Source: Thermoplasmata archaeon (GTDB lineage Archaea; Thermoplasmatota; Thermoplasmata; Lutacidiplasmatales; UBA184). Taken from it: a stretch of DNA of 64,000 nt. Positions 28,416 through 61,529 of the stretch are shown here, piece after piece. The notes beneath the pieces were generated by a model that made no database searches, was not told the origin of the DNA, and was given only the letters and a program-made list of their open reading frames with translations. A program made the position numbers and the translations under genes. The stretch is taken from the NCBI GenBank assembly GCA_028864975.1, contig JAGWLG010000002.1, forward strand, positions 64,001 through 128,000, in the 5' to 3' direction. The first letter of the stretch is position 1; each line of letters starts with the position of its first letter.

Positions 28416-28730
28416 CTGCTAGGCTTGACCGGGGGGTTAGGCGTCCCCTTGTACACCAGCATCGTCTTCAGTGGGGGTGACAGCCAGGGACGGCGTCGGG
28501 CGGATCCGGTCGCTCGTTCAGTTCCGTGGAAGCTCTGTTCCATCAGGTCGCGGGCACTGCGACGGGCCCTCGGAGGAGGGCCCTAGCGGTTACCCATCAT
28601 GGGTACCGGGTCAGGTCCTGACGGGAGCAGCCCTACCATGACCCGTCGACGCCGATGGGGCAACGGGGCGGAGGAACGGTTCGAGGCTCACGGCCGGACC
28701 CTCACGGCGTCAACCCTGGTGGCCTAGCAT
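28416..28730 (+). ncRNA. ffs: Archaeal SRP (7S) RNA
   Basis: Terminal helix TGCTAGGC (28417-24) / GCCTAGCA (28722-29); Alu-domain GGGGGGTTAGGCGTCCCCTTGTA; helix 6 GGGCCCTC-GGAG-GAGGGCCC; helix 8 CAGG-TCC-TGAC-GGG-AGCAG SRP54 site; about 315 nt. Confidence 0.93.
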
Positions 28731-56778: not shown

Positions 56779-59700
56779 TTGGAAGAATACTTCCGTCACC
56801 TCGACGAGGAGGTCACCCGTGCCTACGAGGTGGCCACGCGGGCCCGCGCCCTCGGGATCGACCCCGAGCCGCGGGTGGAGATCCCCCGGGCGCAGGACCT
56901 CGCCTCTCGGGTCGAGAAGCTCCTCGCGAAATGGCCGGTCTCGGGGGTCGCGGTCCGCATCCGCGAGCTCTCCGCCCAGACCCCGAAGATCTCCCGGGAG
57001 GAGGTCGCGATCACCCTGGCGCAGGAGATGGCCGGGGACGCCTCGCGCGGAAGCGTCGCCGAACGTCTCGAGGTCTCCCTGCGCGTCGGGCTCGCCATCC
57101 TGACGGAAGGGATCGTCGTGGCCCCGCTCGAAGGGCTTGTCAAGGTCGAGGTCCACCCCGATCCCCAGGGAGACTACGTTGACCTCTACTACGCGGGCCC
57201 AATCCGCGCCGCTGGGGGGGGCGCTCAGGCGGTCTCGGTCCTCCTCGCGGACGTGGTCCGCGAGAAGCTCGGGCTCTCGCGTTGGCATGCGACGGAGCAG
57301 GAGATCTCCCGCTACTGCGAGGAGTTGCCGCTCTACAAGCACCTCCAACATCTGCAGTACTCCCCCTCGGTGGAGGAGATCCGGACCGTCGTCTCCCGGC
57401 TCCCGGTCTGTATCGACGGGGAAGCGACCGAAGGCGACCAGGAGGTCAGCGCCTTCCGCAACGTCCCCCGCGTGGGCACGAACGGCGTGCGGGGCGGGGC
57501 TTGCCTGGTGATCGCCGAGGGGCTCTGTCTCAAGGCCCCCAAAGTGAGAAAGATCGTGGACAACCTCCGAAAGAAGGGGCTCTCCCTCTCGGACTGGGAC
57601 TTCCTCGACAAGGTGGGCCTGAAGGGGGCGAAGGAGGACGACGAAGGGAAGGGTTCCTTGCCCAAGTACCTCGCCGAAGCGGTGGGCGGACGCCCGGTCC
57701 TGGCCTACCCGCACCGTCCCGGGGGGTTCCGGCTCGTCTACGGACGCTGCCGGACCACCGGCCTCGCCTCCTGTGGCGTGAACCCCGCCACGATGGTCCT
57801 GCTGAGACACTTCGTCGCGATCGGCACCCAGGTGAAGACGGAGCTGCCGGGAAAGGCCGCGGCGATCTCCCTCTGCGACACGGTCGAGGGGCCGCTCGTC
57901 CTGCTTCGCGACGGCACTTACCTCCAGGTGAACGACGCCGAGCGGGCGAAGGAGGTCCTCCCAGAGGTGGACAGGATCCTCGACCTGGGTGAGCTCCTGG
58001 TCTCCTTCGGGGAGTTCCTCGAGAACAATCGCCCCCTCGCACCGGGCGGCTACTCCCTCGCCTGGCACTTGGAGGTGCTACGGGCGAAGGGGGCGACCCT
58101 CGACCGCCGTGCCCTCGCGCCCACCTTCCCCGAAGCGCTCGAGGACGCGAAGCAGCTCCAAGTTCCCCTTCACCCTCGGTTCAATCTCTTCTGGCACGAC
58201 CTCTCAGCGGAAGCGCTTCGGGCGCTCTCCCGCCGGGTGGAGGACCAGAGCGCCTGGTCCGGGGGTACCCTCCACCTCCCGATGGACCCCTCGTTGAGGG
58301 AGGAGCTTCTGGTCTTGGGCCTCCCTCATCACGTCGAGGGGGGCTCGCTCGTCCTCGACCCCGAGCGGGCCCCCGCTTTCCTCCTGGGCCTCGGGCTGGA
58401 GGTCGTCCCCTCGAACGGCGAGCTGCACCGGCGAGCCCCCCTGGAAGGAGGGGCGGCCGACACCATGGCCGAGGTCGTCCGGCTCTCGGGGGTCGCGTGG
58501 AAGCCCCGAGCTCCCACCCGTATCGGTGCCCGCGTAGGAAGACCGGAGAAGGCCTACCAACGGGTCATGTCGCCGAACGTGCACGTTCTCTTCCCTGTGG
58601 GGGAAGCGGGAGGTGCCAAACGATCGGTCCTGGCGGCGGCGGACCGGGCTCGTGAGGCTGCGCGTCCGAGCTACCCTCGCAACCACCCTTCGCGCCCTTC
58701 GTCCGCCGCCTCCCCGCCCGCACCCCCGCCCTCCCTCTCTGTCGCGCTGGGGATCCGGCGTTGTGAGCAATGTGGTCAGGAGGTCATCTCCAACCGTTGC
58801 GCGTGCGGGGGACACACCCGGCCGACGGAGCGCTCGGTCGCCGAGCCCGTACCTTTCCATGAGCTCTGGGAGCGTTCCCTGCGCGCTCTAGGGTTCTCGA
58901 AGTTCCCGCGGGACGTCAAGGGGGTCAAGGGCCTCATGTCGGAGAGCAAGACCCCGGAACCGCTCGAGAAGGGGGTCCTCCGGGCCCTCCACAACATTTC
59001 CGTCTACCAGGATGGAACGACACGGTTCGACCTCACGGACCTTCCGCTGACGCACTTCCGTCCCTGCGAAGTGGGGCTCCCGTTGGCGAAGGCCCATGCG
59101 CTCGGCTACACCCACGACTGGACCGGTGCGCCCCTGGAGCGGGTGGACCAGCTCCTGGAGGTCCTTCCGCACGACATCATCGTCGCGAAGAGCTGCGGCG
59201 ACTATCTGCTCGCCCTTTCGCACTTCCTGGACGACGAGCTCCACCTCCTCTACGGGATGGACCCCTACTACCGGGGCCAGAACCGCTACGACCTCCTGGG
59301 GAGCCTCGTGATCGCCCTCGCACCGCACACGTCGGGCGGCGTGTTGGGCCGGCTCATCGGGTTCACCGACGTCGAGGGATGCTTCGCCCATCCGGTCTTC
59401 CACGCCGCGAAGCGAAGGAACTGCGACGGGGACGAGGACTCGGTCACGCTCTTGCTCGACGGTCTCCTCAACTTCTCCTTCGCCTACCTTCCCGTCAAGC
59501 GGGGGGCGCTCATGGACAAGCCCCTCGTGCTCACGACCCGGCTCGACTCCCGGGAAGTGGACAAGGAGGCGCAGAACGTCGACGTGGCCTGTTCCTACCC
59601 GCTCGCGCTCTACGAGGCCGCCGAGCAAGGCGCCTCCCCCAAGGCCGTCGAGTCGCTCATCGACACGCTGGGAAAGCGCCTGGAGAAGGGCCCGTTGCAG

Positions 59701-60273
59701 TTCTCCCGGATGGGGTTCACGCACGACACCGCGGACATCGGGGCAGGACCCCGCCAGTCCGCTTACCGCGAGGCCCGAGGGATGGAGCGCACCGTGGAGG
59801 AGACCCTCCTCTTGGGCGCCCAGCTACGGGCGGTGGACGTGTCGGACGCGGTGGGGCTCCTGCTCAACCACCACTTCCTCCCCGACATCATGGGCAACAT
59901 GAAGAGCTACGCCACGCAGAGGTTCCGCTGCAAGGTCTGCGGAAGCTCTCTTCGCCGCCCCGCCTTGGATGGGCGCTGCCCGGAGCTGAGAGGGAAAGCC
60001 CGGTGCGGTGGTGAGCTCCTTCCGACGGTCTACCCCAGCAACGTCACCAAGTACCTGGGACTCTCCCGCGACCTCGCCAAGCGCTACGGGGTCTCGCCCT
60101 ATCTCCGCCAGCGGGTCGAGATCCTCGAGTCCTCCTTCGCGAGCCTGTTCCCCACCTCTCCGGGGGCGGTGGGGCTGGAGGAATTCCACGCCCCCGACCG
60201 GCCGACCCCGCCCCCTCCCCCGGAAGAGGAGCCCCCGTCGGAGCCTCCTCCCCCCTCCGCGCCAGCGGCGTGA
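56779..60273 (+). CDS. polC: DNA polymerase II (PolD) large subunit DP2, intein-free
   Basis: G.DP...VEIP.A.DLA.RVE.L, AILTEG...AP.EG, YYAGPIRAAGG, GGFRL.YGR.R.TG, RIG.R.GRPEKA, HAAKRRNCDGDED catalytic motif, PDIMGN. Confidence 0.98.
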   Translation: MEEYFRHLDEEVTRAYEVATRARALGIDPEPRVEIPRAQDLASRVEKLLAKWPVSGVAVRIRELSAQTPKISREEVAITLAQEMAGDASRGSVAERLEVSLRVGLAILTEGIVVAPLEGLVKVEVHPDPQGDYVDLYYAGPIRAAGGGAQAVSVLLADVVREKLGLSRWHATEQEISRYCEELPLYKHLQHLQYSPSVEEIRTVVSRLPVCIDGEATEGDQEVSAFRNVPRVGTNGVRGGACLVIAEGLCLKAPKVRKIVDNLRKKGLSLSDWDFLDKVGLKGAKEDDEGKGSLPKYLAEAVGGRPVLAYPHRPGGFRLVYGRCRTTGLASCGVNPATMVLLRHFVAIGTQVKTELPGKAAAISLCDTVEGPLVLLRDGTYLQVNDAERAKEVLPEVDRILDLGELLVSFGEFLENNRPLAPGGYSLAWHLEVLRAKGATLDRRALAPTFPEALEDAKQLQVPLHPRFNLFWHDLSAEALRALSRRVEDQSAWSGGTLHLPMDPSLREELLVLGLPHHVEGGSLVLDPERAPAFLLGLGLEVVPSNGELHRRAPLEGGAADTMAEVVRLSGVAWKPRAPTRIGARVGRPEKAYQRVMSPNVHVLFPVGEAGGAKRSVLAAADRAREAARPSYPRNHPSRPSSAASPPAPPPSLSVALGIRRCEQCGQEVISNRCACGGHTRPTERSVAEPVPFHELWERSLRALGFSKFPRDVKGVKGLMSESKTPEPLEKGVLRALHNISVYQDGTTRFDLTDLPLTHFRPCEVGLPLAKAHALGYTHDWTGAPLERVDQLLEVLPHDIIVAKSCGDYLLALSHFLDDELHLLYGMDPYYRGQNRYDLLGSLVIALAPHTSGGVLGRLIGFTDVEGCFAHPVFHAAKRRNCDGDEDSVTLLLDGLLNFSFAYLPVKRGALMDKPLVLTTRLDSREVDKEAQNVDVACSYPLALYEAAEQGASPKAVESLIDTLGKRLEKGPLQFSRMGFTHDTADIGAGPRQSAYREARGMERTVEETLLLGAQLRAVDVSDAVGLLLNHHFLPDIMGNMKSYATQRFRCKVCGSSLRRPALDGRCPELRGKARCGGELLPTVYPSNVTKYLGLSRDLAKRYGVSPYLRQRVEILESSFASLFPTSPGAVGLEEFHAPDRPTPPPPPEEEPPSEPPPPSAPAA

Positions 60274-60294: not shown

Positions 60295-61263
60295 CTACTT
60301 CAGCAGCTGCCGGAGCAGTGTGGGGAGGCGTGCCGCGAAGTCGGGAGGGTAGTCGTGCCCGAGCCCGGGCACGAGGTCGAGGCGACAGTCGACTCCTCCG
60401 TCGACCAACTTGTCCTGCAAGGTCTCGGTCGCACCTCGAGAGGGATCGGCCGTCCCCGTGACCAGCACCCCCTTGAGGTCGGGGGACAGGGGCCGCGCGG
60501 CCAGGTCGACGAGAGTTTCCCCCCCCTCGAGCGCAACAGCCCTCGTCGGGGCGACCGCGAGGAATCCGATGGCCGGAAGGGTTTGTTGCAGGGTCGCGTG
60601 CACCGCGAGGGCTGCTCCCTGGGAGTAACCTGCCAGCACGAGCGGGACGTTCGGGGACTCTCTCGGAAGGTCGAGGGTGACCGAGCGCAGGTCATCCAAG
60701 GCCCGAGGTACATCATCCCACCGATAGCGTTGGGACGACCAGGGTTGCGAGGATTGGACGAGCGCGACTCGGAAGCCCTCTTCCGCGGCGCGTCCCCAGA
60801 TGGGCTCGGCAGCGCGAGCGTTCTGTCCCCGACCGTGAAGGACGATGAGCCAAGGGGGCGGACGGTCCGGCGGGCTCTTGGGGATCGAAGGCATGACGAG
60901 GAGGTGGGACGGTCGCCGGGTCTCCCCTTCGGCCCGCGCCTGGAGCTCTCCCGCCCTCTTCCGGACACGGTCGAACTCCGGGAGACCCTGGAGAGGTCCC
61001 AGGAAGTTCCCGTACATCTCGAACCACTGGGGCGGCCACCAAAGGCCTCGGTCCAGGGATTCCTCCAGTTCGCGGACCGCTCCCGCGTGGTCCCCACGTT
61101 GAACACGAGCGATCGCGACGGTCATGGCCGCATCGTCGCTCTGGTCGGGGAAGGCCGCGGCGATCTCACGGGCGGCCGCCTCCAGAGCGACGAAGTCTCC
61201 CCGAGCGAAAGCGAGGTTCTGCCGCTCCTCCAGGGCTCGGAAGTCGGTGTTCCCCTCGGTCAT
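60295..61263 (-). CDS. Alpha/beta hydrolase (phospholipase/carboxylesterase-like) with an N-terminal helical/TPR-like domain
   Basis: LIVLHGRG, LAGYSQG nucleophile elbow, GTADP, GLGHDY. Confidence 0.85.
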   Translation of the reverse strand: MTEGNTDFRALEERQNLAFARGDFVALEAAAREIAAAFPDQSDDAAMTVAIARVQRGDHAGAVRELEESLDRGLWWPPQWFEMYGNFLGPLQGLPEFDRVRKRAGELQARAEGETRRPSHLLVMPSIPKSPPDRPPPWLIVLHGRGQNARAAEPIWGRAAEEGFRVALVQSSQPWSSQRYRWDDVPRALDDLRSVTLDLPRESPNVPLVLAGYSQGAALAVHATLQQTLPAIGFLAVAPTRAVALEGGETLVDLAARPLSPDLKGVLVTGTADPSRGATETLQDKLVDGGVDCRLDLVPGLGHDYPPDFAARLPTLLRQLLK

Positions 61264-61419
61264 GATGCACGCTCGGCGGTCGGCTCCTGGGATGCGTCCC
61301 GGACCCCGCTTCGTCTTGAAAGGCGTTCCGACCGGTCCCTCGGCGCCATGACGTCGTGGTTGTGGGCCCTCGTCGCCGCGAACAGAATCCCTAAGTCCTC
61401 CGGGAAGGCTGCGCCTCGC

Positions 61420-61529
61420 GGGCTCGTGGGGTAGTCTGGACTATCCTGATGGCCTTCGGAGCCATCGACCCGGGTTCGAAGCTCATCGGCCGCTAAGGGC
61501 GACCATGAGAGAGAATCCCGGCGAGCCCG
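61420..61529 (+). tRNA. tRNA-Arg(UCG) with a T-loop intron; CCA not encoded
   Basis: Acceptor GGGCTCG/CGAGCCC; D arm; anticodon arm ATGGC-CTTCGGA-GCCAT; T arm CCGGG-TTCGAA[35 nt]T-CCCGG; CCTAAG about 27 nt upstream. Confidence 0.92.
61481..61515 (+). other. 35-nt archaeal tRNA intron at position 59/60 with a relaxed BHB (BHL-like) motif
   Basis: Removing GCTCATCGGCCGCTAAGGGCGACCATGAGAGAGAA restores TTCGAAT; outer helix CUCAU/AUGAG; central helix UUCG/AGAG (3 pairs + G.A); two 3-nt bulges. Confidence 0.88.

What the first reader, a model, noticed from the sequence alone, without database searches (positions are those of the whole stretch)
61420..61529. tRNA-Arg(UCG) interrupted by a non-canonical T-loop (59/60) intron with a relaxed BHB
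Seen: both tRNA halves are perfect, and a 35-nt insert forms h(T-stem)-B-H(UUCG/AGAG, one G.A mismatch)-B-h'(CUCAU/AUGAG). Established: euryarchaeal introns are mostly at 37/38 with strict BHB, while non-canonical positions and BHL motifs are typical of Thermoproteales, some TACK and DPANN, which have broad-specificity endonucleases. Inference: this lineage has a relaxed-specificity splicing endonuclease. The intron also interrupts the T-loop, a common integrase att region. Standard annotation could call this a pseudogene or miss it.
Basis: partly seen in the sequence, partly recalled or inferred. Interest (0 to 1): 0.75.

Follow-up and report, generated by a model that had tools for sequence, protein, structure and literature searches.

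The report
Arginine tRNA gene with T-loop intron
This is a real and apparently the only tRNA-Arg(UCG) gene of an uncultured Thermoplasmata archaeon, split in its T-loop by a 35-base protein-spliced intron of a known kind; the unexpected point is that the genome encodes only the splicing-enzyme type that reviews describe as limited to standard introns.

Summary
Window 61420-61529 (+) holds a tRNA-Arg(UCG) gene made of a 61-nt 5' exon, a 35-nt intron (61481-61515) and a 14-nt 3' exon. Removing the intron gives a perfect cloverleaf.

The intron rebuilds a bulge-helix-bulge on the T arm. Position 59/60 is the T-arm counterpart of the canonical 37/38.

The same intron is present in 23 of 29 genomes of the family. 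It sits next to the same PolD gene in the 24 relatives checked for synteny. It varies in length (23-35 nt) and keeps its helices through compensatory changes. In 22 of 26 distinct orthologous introns the central helix is a perfect 4 bp. The G.A mismatch is particular to this genus.

This genome carries at least nine T-loop introns. It encodes RtcB and a single two-unit (alpha'2-type) EndA without the loop that gives other archaea broad specificity.

Its inference of a broad-specificity enzyme is not supported by the enzyme's architecture, although some tolerance of an imperfect helix is implied.

No RNA data exist, so splicing is inferred. This scan had already reported the same phenomenon for eight other tRNA genes of this genome.

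The parts
61380..61396 (+). Promoter-like element: purine-rich stretch followed by an AT-rich box (CTAAGT, about -29 to -24 from the first tRNA base) in otherwise GC-rich DNA
   Evidence: An AT-rich box at the same distance precedes the Arg(UCG) gene in all 25 family orthologues inspected. Its function as an archaeal TATA box is inferred.
61420..61480 (+). 5' exon: tRNA positions 1-59 (acceptor 5' strand, D arm, anticodon arm with UCG, variable loop, T-stem 5' strand 61470-61474, T-loop nt 54-59)
   Evidence: 85-98% identical to the 5' exons of the family orthologues.
61475..61478 (+). H helix, 5' strand (U54 U55 C56 G57)
   Evidence: Pairs with 61510-61513 (U.G, U-A, C-G, G x A).
61479..61481 (+). 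Bulge B1 (A58 A59 | G); inferred 5' cleavage site after 61480
   Evidence: Geometry taken from 22 orthologues with a perfect H helix in this register. A co-occurring relative's contig diverges exactly after 61480.
61481..61515 (+). 35-nt BHB intron
   Evidence: Its removal raises the ARAGORN score to 125.9. Present at the same site in 23 of 29 family genomes.
61482..61509 (+). h' helix (CUCAU 61482-61486 / AUGAG 61505-61509) closing an 18-nt apical part
   Evidence: The helix is kept with different sequences in other genera. One population variant (T>G at 61494) lies in the apical part.
61510..61513 (+). H helix, 3' strand (AGAG); the first A (61510) faces G57 as the G.A mismatch
   Evidence: Orthologues outside this genus have C at that place (consensus CGRA).
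61514..61516 (+). Bulge B2 (A A | U60); inferred 3' cleavage site after 61515
61516..61529 (+). 3' exon: U60, T-stem 3' strand (61517-61521), acceptor 3' strand (61522-61528), discriminator G (61529). No encoded CCA.
56779..60273 (+). DNA polymerase D large subunit (DP2), the conserved upstream neighbour of this tRNA gene
   Evidence: Pfam. DP2 followed by tRNA-Arg(UCG) is found in all 24 relatives of the family searched. In this genome an alpha/beta-hydrolase-like ORF (60295-61263, minus strand) lies between them.

Best explanation
A functional tRNA-Arg(UCG) gene is transcribed as a 110-nt precursor (plus leader and trailer). In the precursor the T arm plays the part that the anticodon arm plays in ordinary archaeal intron-bearing tRNAs. 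The 5-bp T stem is helix h. T-loop nucleotides 54-57 pair with the four intron bases n-5 to n-2 to form helix H. A58, A59 and the first intron base form one 3-nt bulge. The last two intron bases and U60 form the other bulge. The rest of the intron folds into h'. The dimeric two-unit (alpha'2-type) EndA cuts after the second base of each bulge, and RtcB joins the exons to restore the T-loop UUCGAAU. No special enzyme is needed for the position, because archaeal EndA reads the BHB and not the tRNA body, and 59/60 in the T arm is the exact counterpart of 37/38 in the anticodon arm. The DP2 tree suggests a single gain after the first split within this Thermoplasmata family. The intron has since been inherited vertically, was lost precisely at least once, and in this genus has lost one pair of helix H. 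Shown here: gene anatomy, conservation, compensatory change, enzyme inventory. Inferred: transcription, the exact cleavage sites, and that this enzyme cuts the imperfect motif.
For: The spliced product is a perfect cloverleaf, ARAGORN 125.9. The precursor MFE fold is a cloverleaf plus intron hairpin, z = -3.8. Orthologues have an intron at the same site in 23 of 29 family genomes, lengths 23-35 nt. Orthology is fixed by synteny with DP2 in the 24 relatives searched for it. Helix H has 4 of 4 pairs in 22 of 26 distinct introns in the predicted register and in 0 of 26 in any of five shifted registers. Helix h' has a mean of 4.3 contiguous pairs against 0.79 in shuffles, maximum 1.6 in 2000, with 20 different end sequences. 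G019, nested inside the intron-bearing clade, lacks the intron and has exactly the predicted junction UUCGAA|U. A deletion scan and a whole-genome structural scan found eight more T-loop introns at the equivalent position in this genome: Asp, Asn, His, Ala-GGC, Gly-UCC, Ser-GCU, Ser-GGA, and one two-intron gene at C38. There is one EndA gene with two units and RtcB at 565 bits. This is the only credible Arg(UCG) gene in the assembly, and CGA codons are used, 15 of 189 Arg codons in four conserved genes. A conserved AT-rich box lies upstream. Literature: a Thermoplasmata alpha'2 enzyme (Ferroplasma) cleaves minimal BHB substrates (PMC8707768, abstract seen). Strict hBHBh' introns at 59/60 exist in ARMAN-2 (PMC3239211).
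Against: No RNA data: no RNA run holds this DNA, so neither transcription nor the spliced junction has been seen. In this gene helix H has only three pairs, one of them U.G, plus a G.A mismatch. The BHB conformer is 5.3 kcal/mol less stable than the MFE fold, which pairs UUC with the terminal GAA instead. Reviews state that alpha4 and alpha'2 enzymes need a strict 3-4-3 motif (PMC3239211, PMC4090602, PMC5829648). The assembly is 89.6% complete, so a second EndA subunit or a second Arg(UCG) gene could lie in the missing part.
Confidence: 0.85

Rival explanations
1. One reading: the lineage owns a splicing endonuclease with truly relaxed (broad) specificity, comparable in function to the (alpha-beta)2 or epsilon2 enzymes, and this is what permits the T-loop introns.
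For: In this gene helix H is imperfect (G.A). Three more of this genome's T-loop introns have an A.G mismatch at the same spot. The BHB register is not the MFE fold in any member of this genus. A same-order genome (G026) has two 13-nt mini-introns in Arg(UCG) with almost no h', resembling the hBH/BHL type. Earlier notes of this scan report D-loop introns in the same genome (not tested here).
Against: One EndA gene only, of alpha'2 architecture. No insert at the CSL/ASL position, and the catalytic unit is almost gap-free against the strict M. jannaschii enzyme. The same two-unit ORF occurs in genomes with and without the Arg intron. 22 of 26 orthologous introns are strict 3-4-3 motifs.
Confidence: 0.2
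2. The gene is a pseudogene: a tRNA-Arg gene inactivated by a 35-bp insertion.
For: Standard finders fail on it. No expression data.
Against: Both exons are flawless, and the insert has been kept at one site across six genera with compensatory changes in two helices. No other Arg(UCG) gene is present while CGA codons are in use. Eight other tRNA genes, several of them the only one found for their anticodon, have the same kind of insert.
Confidence: 0.03
3. The interruption is a scar or attachment site of an integrated mobile element that targeted the T-loop and 3' end of the tRNA.
For: tRNA 3' halves are common integration sites (general knowledge). A DNA-methylase-like ORF lies just downstream. 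The 14-nt 3' exon occurs three more times in the genome.
Against: Those three copies do not extend by a single base beyond the 14-mer. About 0.5 chance occurrences are expected for so GC-rich a word (my estimate). No integrase is among the neighbouring ORFs tested. The insert is 35 nt and folds into a BHB. The DP2-tRNA synteny is ancient.
Confidence: 0.02

Closest known systems
59/60 introns of Candidatus Micrarchaeum acidiphilum ARMAN-2: pre-tRNA-Pro(GGG) (strict hBHBh', 53/54 plus 59/60) and pre-tRNA-Cys(GCA) (13-nt hBH at 59/60), Fujishima et al. 2011, PMC3239211
   Same: Same insertion point in the T-loop. Protein-spliced BHB-class intron. Short length. Organism placed near or within Euryarchaeota.
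   Different: ARMAN-2 has a three-unit epsilon2 EndA with a specific loop and shown broad specificity. Here the enzyme is a two-unit alpha'2 type without that loop, and cleavage has not been tested.
Non-canonical-position introns of Thermoproteales and other TACK archaea (Sugahara et al. 2008, as cited in PMC4033280)
   Same: BHB-class introns outside the anticodon loop, present in many tRNA genes of one genome. That the T-loop is among their insertion sites is recalled from memory; PMC3239211 says only that ARMAN-2 sites overlap the major sites of (alpha-beta)2 archaea.
   Different: Those lineages have heterotetrameric (alpha-beta)2 EndA with the Crenarchaea-specific loop, many relaxed HBh'/hBH motifs and introns at many positions. 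Here the T-loop introns all sit at one position that mimics 37/38, and most are strict.
Canonical 37/38 introns of Euryarchaeota cut by alpha'2 EndA (A. fulgidus 1R0V/2GJW, Haloferax, Thermoplasma, Ferroplasma)
   Same: Same enzyme architecture. Same geometry: a 5-bp stem, four loop bases paired to the 3' part of the intron, and two 3-nt bulges cut after their second base.
   Different: The scaffold is the T arm, not the anticodon arm. In this genus helix H is one pair short.
Methanopyrus kandleri pre-tRNA-Glu(UUC) D-loop HBh' intron and its loop-less (alpha-beta)2 EndA (Kaneta et al. 2018, PMC5829648)
   Same: A euryarchaeon with a non-canonical intron and an EndA that lacks the specific loop.
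   Different: Different enzyme architecture, different intron position and motif. There cleavage was measured and found inefficient.

Membership tests
Archaeal protein-spliced BHB-class tRNA intron (strict or relaxed) | Removal of the insert restores a canonical tRNA | tested here: met
   ARAGORN 125.9, all stems perfect.
Archaeal protein-spliced BHB-class tRNA intron (strict or relaxed) | Exon-intron boundaries lie in two bulges on opposite strands, separated by a short helix and flanked by helices h and h' | tested here: met
   h = T stem, B1 = AAG, B2 = AAU, h' = CUCAU/AUGAG. The register is confirmed in 22 of 26 orthologues and in no shifted register.
Archaeal protein-spliced BHB-class tRNA intron (strict or relaxed) | Genome encodes EndA and an RtcB-type ligase | tested here: met
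   EndA at G000:C53. RtcB at G000:C104, 565 bits.
Archaeal protein-spliced BHB-class tRNA intron (strict or relaxed) | Spliced tRNA and excised (circular) intron are seen in RNA | not testable with these tools
   No RNA run holds this DNA.
Strict hBHBh' (3-4-3) motif | Central helix H of four base pairs | tested here: not met
   In this gene there are 3 pairs (U.G, U-A, C-G) plus G x A. The feature is met in every orthologue analysed from the other genera of the family (18 distinct introns) and in 4 of 5 from outside the family (the G026 helix read by eye).
Strict hBHBh' (3-4-3) motif | Two bulges of exactly 3 nt | tested here: met
   AAG and AAU in the BHB register. The MFE fold of the isolated RNA prefers another register.
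alpha'2-type (two-unit homodimeric) EndA | One polypeptide with two tandem endonuclease units, and no second EndA gene | tested here: met
   Two PF01974 and two PF02778 hits in one 374-aa ORF. Collinear with A. fulgidus EndA over residues 44-355. No paralogue found. The assembly is 89.6% complete.
alpha'2-type (two-unit homodimeric) EndA | Catalytic Tyr/His/Lys in the C-terminal unit | tested here: met
   FRAY, SHARY and VRKQ align with the M. jannaschii and M. kandleri catalytic segments. Assignment of the residues is by alignment only.
Broad-specificity EndA ((alpha-beta)2 with CSL, epsilon2 with ASL) | Insert (specific loop with a conserved Lys) in the N-terminal part of the catalytic unit | tested here: not met
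   A 10-residue gap opposite the A. pernix segment that holds K44, and no insert relative to M. jannaschii.
Integrated element with a tRNA att site | Direct repeat of the tRNA 3' part plus an integrase nearby | tested here: not met
   The repeats of the 14-mer do not extend. No integrase among the neighbouring ORFs tested.
Self-splicing group I/II intron | Ribozyme core | tested here: not met
   The insert is 35 nt. Rfam finds no family there even at E <= 10.

The most novel reading that the evidence does not exclude
The two-unit EndA of this Thermoplasmata family, although it lacks every known specificity loop, has a wider substrate range than the alpha'2 enzymes studied so far. It would accept BHB motifs on the T arm whose central helix has only three pairs plus a purine-purine mismatch, and in related families 13-nt mini-introns with almost no h'. 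That would be a third, loop-independent route to broadened EndA specificity. It would also overturn the rule that enzyme architecture predicts where tRNA introns can sit. A conserved PRGG-x3-KTPS(K/R)-aromatic-WV segment in the non-catalytic N-terminal unit, which has no counterpart in the alignment to the A. fulgidus enzyme, is an untested candidate for the difference.
Probability: 0.25. Interest if true: 0.7.

Novelty: new member of a known kind. Interest (0 to 1): 0.45.

Why it matters
Reviews tie intron position and motif strictness to EndA architecture: alpha4 and alpha'2 enzymes go with canonical 37/38 strict introns only. This gene and its eight T-loop-interrupted companions in one genome show a euryarchaeal-type lineage that breaks the positional part of that rule while keeping an ordinary-looking alpha'2 enzyme.

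The data suggest a simple reason. The T arm has a 5-bp stem and a 7-nt loop whose first four bases are nearly invariant, so it can imitate the anticodon arm.

There are practical consequences too. ARAGORN and the Rfam tRNA model miss or mis-call these genes, so tRNA sets of Thermoplasmata MAGs look incomplete and completeness or decoding inferences can be wrong.

The clade also offers a natural series for a direct biochemical test of how strict an alpha'2 enzyme really is: a perfect helix H in most genera, a G.A mismatch in this genus, and one precise loss.

Tried and rejected
**RNA evidence.** No RNA holder is listed for this DNA. Only DNA contigs could be laid on it.

**Second Arg(UCG) gene.**
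- The ARAGORN 'tcg' call at G000:C115:54062-54164 has a Glu-type body. Its arms are almost identical to Glu(CUC), and a perfect canonical BHB gives the loop CCUUCGA, so it is Glu(UUC) and not Arg.
- The call at G000:C20:31775-31847 scores 107.5, has no Rfam hit even at E <= 10 and has mismatched stems. It is rejected as a false positive.

**Integration or att idea.** Three other copies of the 14-nt 3' exon do not extend beyond the 14-mer.

**Recent transposition.** The nine T-loop introns of this genome share only the 3' H/B2 consensus and no other similarity by eye. I did not test this formally.

**EndA insert.** An apparent 11-residue insert in the N-terminal unit relative to A. fulgidus turned out to be conserved in all 80 Thermoplasmata EndA relatives fetched. 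It therefore does not mark the intron-rich family.

**ARAGORN with long introns.** The setting -i up to 3000 gave mostly false positives and was dropped.

**Literature.** Searches found no paper describing T-loop introns in Thermoplasmata. Absence from the held library does not prove that it is unpublished.

**Genomes left out or undecided.** G159, G028, G029, G030 and G064 could not be scored because of a contig end or an unresolved 3' exon. In G121 the locus fetched was an Arg(GCG) gene, so its Arg(UCG) was not scored. G120 (unpublished) was left out of all counts.

Full report
**1. Observation**

Window 61420-61529 (+) was read.
- Positions 61420-61480 hold tRNA positions 1-59: acceptor strand GGGCUCG, D arm, anticodon loop CUUCGGA, T-stem strand CCGGG and T-loop UUCGAA.
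- Positions 61516-61529 hold U60, CCCGG, CGAGCCC and the discriminator G.
- Joining the two gives a 75-nt tRNA-Arg(UCG) with perfect stems and ARAGORN score 125.9.
- On the genomic sequence ARAGORN forces a 75-nt model with mismatched acceptor and T stems. The Rfam tRNA model reaches only 19.1 bits against a cut-off of 29.
- A scan over every possible single deletion found the best score only for a 35-nt deletion starting after position 56, 57, 58 or 59. These cuts are equivalent because exon and intron both end in GAA.
- The 110-mer folds into a cloverleaf plus an intron hairpin (-57 kcal/mol, z = -3.8).
- Contigs from two independent metagenome studies carry the interrupted gene. A 208-nt contig has one change, in the intron's apical part. 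A co-occurring relative's contig matches up to 61480 and then continues with a different intron ending in CGAAAC|UCCC.

**2. Organism and context**

- The window holds an archaeal SRP RNA and the PolD large subunit.
- EndA relatives at 45-73% identity are almost all titled Thermoplasmata MAGs from soil, peat and sediment.
- The DNA is found in mine-drainage and soil metagenomes.
- The assembly has 3.6 Mb in 124 contigs and is 89.6% complete.

**3. Conservation**

I scored the Arg(UCG) gene in 108 genomes of the class.
- In the family of this genome, 23 of 29 genomes have an intron at this site, 23-35 nt long.
- The six without it are the five genomes of one genus (g3) and G019.
- Outside the family, 5 of 79 have a T-loop intron in this gene: G026, 13 nt; three genomes of family f11, 30, 135 and 136 nt; G158, 38 nt.
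- Family f2 has a long anticodon-loop intron instead.
- Orthology is secured by synteny. In all 24 relatives of the family searched for DP2, DP2 lies immediately upstream of the gene.

A DP2 tree (FastTree, query-anchored alignment, one gene, rooted on two other families) gives the following picture.
- g3 is the first branch of the family.
- All other genera form a clade, with support 0.97 for the split.
- G019 is nested inside the intron-bearing genus g7.
- The simplest history is one gain after g3 split off and one precise loss in G019.
- G019's T-loop is UUCGAAU, exactly the predicted spliced junction.

**4. Structure across orthologues**

Results for 26 distinct introns:
- T-loop bases 54-57 pair perfectly (4 of 4) with intron bases n-5 to n-2 in 22 introns.
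- No intron does so in any of five shifted registers.
- The consensus 3' end is CGRAAY|U. This gives H = UUCG/CGRA, B2 = A-Y-U60 and B1 = A58-A59-i1.
- Helix h' starts right after i1. It has a mean of 4.3 contiguous pairs, against 0.79 in shuffles (maximum 1.6 in 2000), with 20 different end sequences. That is compensatory change.
- The four imperfect cases are the three distinct sequences of this genus, which have A instead of C at n-5, and G158.

The G.A mismatch is therefore a derived state of this genus. In this gene the BHB conformer (-51.7 kcal/mol) is 5.3 kcal/mol above the MFE fold. In 15 of 23 relatives the MFE fold itself contains helix H in register, but in no member of this genus.

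**5. The rest of the genome**

- The Rfam tRNA model gives 39 hits above its cut-off and 8 weak ones.
- The deletion scan and a whole-genome structural scan find T-loop introns at the equivalent position in Arg-UCG, Asp, Asn, His, Ala-GGC, Gly-UCC, Ser-GCU, Ser-GGA and a two-intron gene at C38:9218-9363.
- That is nine of roughly 47 tRNA genes.
- Helix H is perfect in Asn, Ala and Gly. It has a purine-purine mismatch at 57/n-5 in Arg, Asp and both Ser genes. I did not check helix H in His or in the C38 gene.

This agrees with eight earlier notes of this scan on other pieces of this genome. I re-derived seven of those genes independently: six before reading the notes, and His confirmed by the structural scan afterwards.

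**6. Enzymes**

- One ORF of 374 aa (G000:C53) holds two PF01974 and two PF02778 domains. It has no paralogue.
- It is collinear with the A. fulgidus alpha'2 EndA over residues 44-355.
- Its C-terminal unit aligns with M. jannaschii EndA with only one- and two-residue gaps. It shows a 10-residue gap opposite the A. pernix segment that contains K44 of the Crenarchaea-specific loop.
- The literature assigns broad specificity to that loop or its ARMAN-2 analogue (PMC5829648, PMC3239211).
- The same two-unit ORF is found in genomes with and without the Arg intron.
- RtcB is present.

**7. Is the gene needed?**

- No other credible Arg(UCG) gene exists in the assembly.
- The C115 candidate is a Glu(UUC) gene, and the C20 candidate is a false positive.
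- CGA makes up 15 of 189 Arg codons in four conserved genes.
- Every orthologue has an AT-rich box at about -31 to -24.

**8. Reading**

The gene is a working tRNA gene with a BHB-class intron at 59/60.
- The mechanism is the ordinary EndA/RtcB pathway acting on a BHB built on the T arm.
- Position 59/60 is to the T arm what 37/38 is to the anticodon arm.
- The first four T-loop bases are nearly invariant, so a short 3' intron segment (YGRA) is enough to build helix H in any tRNA. This may explain why this one site has been colonised in so many tRNAs of the lineage (inference).
- A broad-specificity enzyme is not indicated by the architecture.
- The imperfect helices in this genus do imply some tolerance, and that tolerance is untested.

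**9. Novelty**

- Introns at 59/60 are known in ARMAN-2 (PMC3239211) and, by my recollection of Sugahara et al. 2008, in Thermoproteales and other TACK archaea.
- The reviews I read state that euryarchaea with alpha4 or alpha'2 enzymes have only canonical-position introns (PMC4090602; PMC4033280).
- I found no paper on T-loop introns in Thermoplasmata in the held library.
- The single gene is a new member of a known kind. The lineage-level pattern is the interesting part, and this scan has already flagged it on other DNA of the same genome.

Noticed in passing
G000:C115:54062-54164 (minus strand; loci L231, L233): A tRNA with a Glu-type body and a perfect canonical BHB intron (26 nt) matures to the anticodon loop CCUUCGA. 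That is anticodon UUC with C instead of the near-universal U at position 33. ARAGORN mis-reads it as Arg(UCG). The same loop is present in 9 intron-less orthologues from 5 genera and in 5 intron-bearing ones. Only G011 has the usual CUUUCGA.
   Followed up: partly
L144 (G026:C38:6760-7060): A same-order relative has two 13-nt mini-introns in Arg(UCG), one at 37/38 and one at 59/60. Each has a perfect 4-bp helix H but almost no h' (BHL-like), the same size as the ARMAN-2 13-nt 59/60 intron. Its EndA is also a single two-unit ORF.
   Followed up: partly
L149 (G038) and L217 (G133), family f11: The Arg(UCG) T-loop intron is 135-136 nt long here, far above the 23-38 nt seen elsewhere, with a perfect helix H. 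Whether it carries anything, for example a small RNA, was not examined.
   Followed up: no
L206 (G165:C121:1507-1831): The 14-nt 3' exon of Arg(UCG) (TCCCCCTGAGTCCG) is repeated 62 nt downstream of the gene. This could be the remnant of an integration event.
   Followed up: no
L057 (G027) and L143 (G025), family f2: Arg(UCG) is interrupted after the anticodon by an insert of roughly 200 nt, while its T-loop is intact. The boundaries and motif were not worked out.
   Followed up: no
G000:C53, EndA residues about 128-143 (L061:1447-2571, minus strand): The non-catalytic N-terminal unit keeps a segment PRGG-x3-KTPS(K/R)-aromatic-WV that is conserved in all 80 Thermoplasmata EndA relatives fetched. 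It appears as an 11-residue insert relative to A. fulgidus EndA.
   Followed up: partly
window 60295-61263 (minus strand): An alpha/beta-hydrolase-like ORF sits between DP2 and the tRNA gene in this genome. In the other genomes of the genus the tRNA follows DP2 within about 40 nt.
   Followed up: no
window 28417-28729 (+): Archaeal SRP RNA, 150.6 bits, full length.
   Followed up: no
G000:C6:96500-96615 (minus strand): ARAGORN calls this Arg(GCG) with an intron, but by eye it is a tRNA-Tyr(GUA) with a canonical intron. No Arg(GCG) gene was identified in the assembly, although CGC is the commonest Arg codon.
   Followed up: partly
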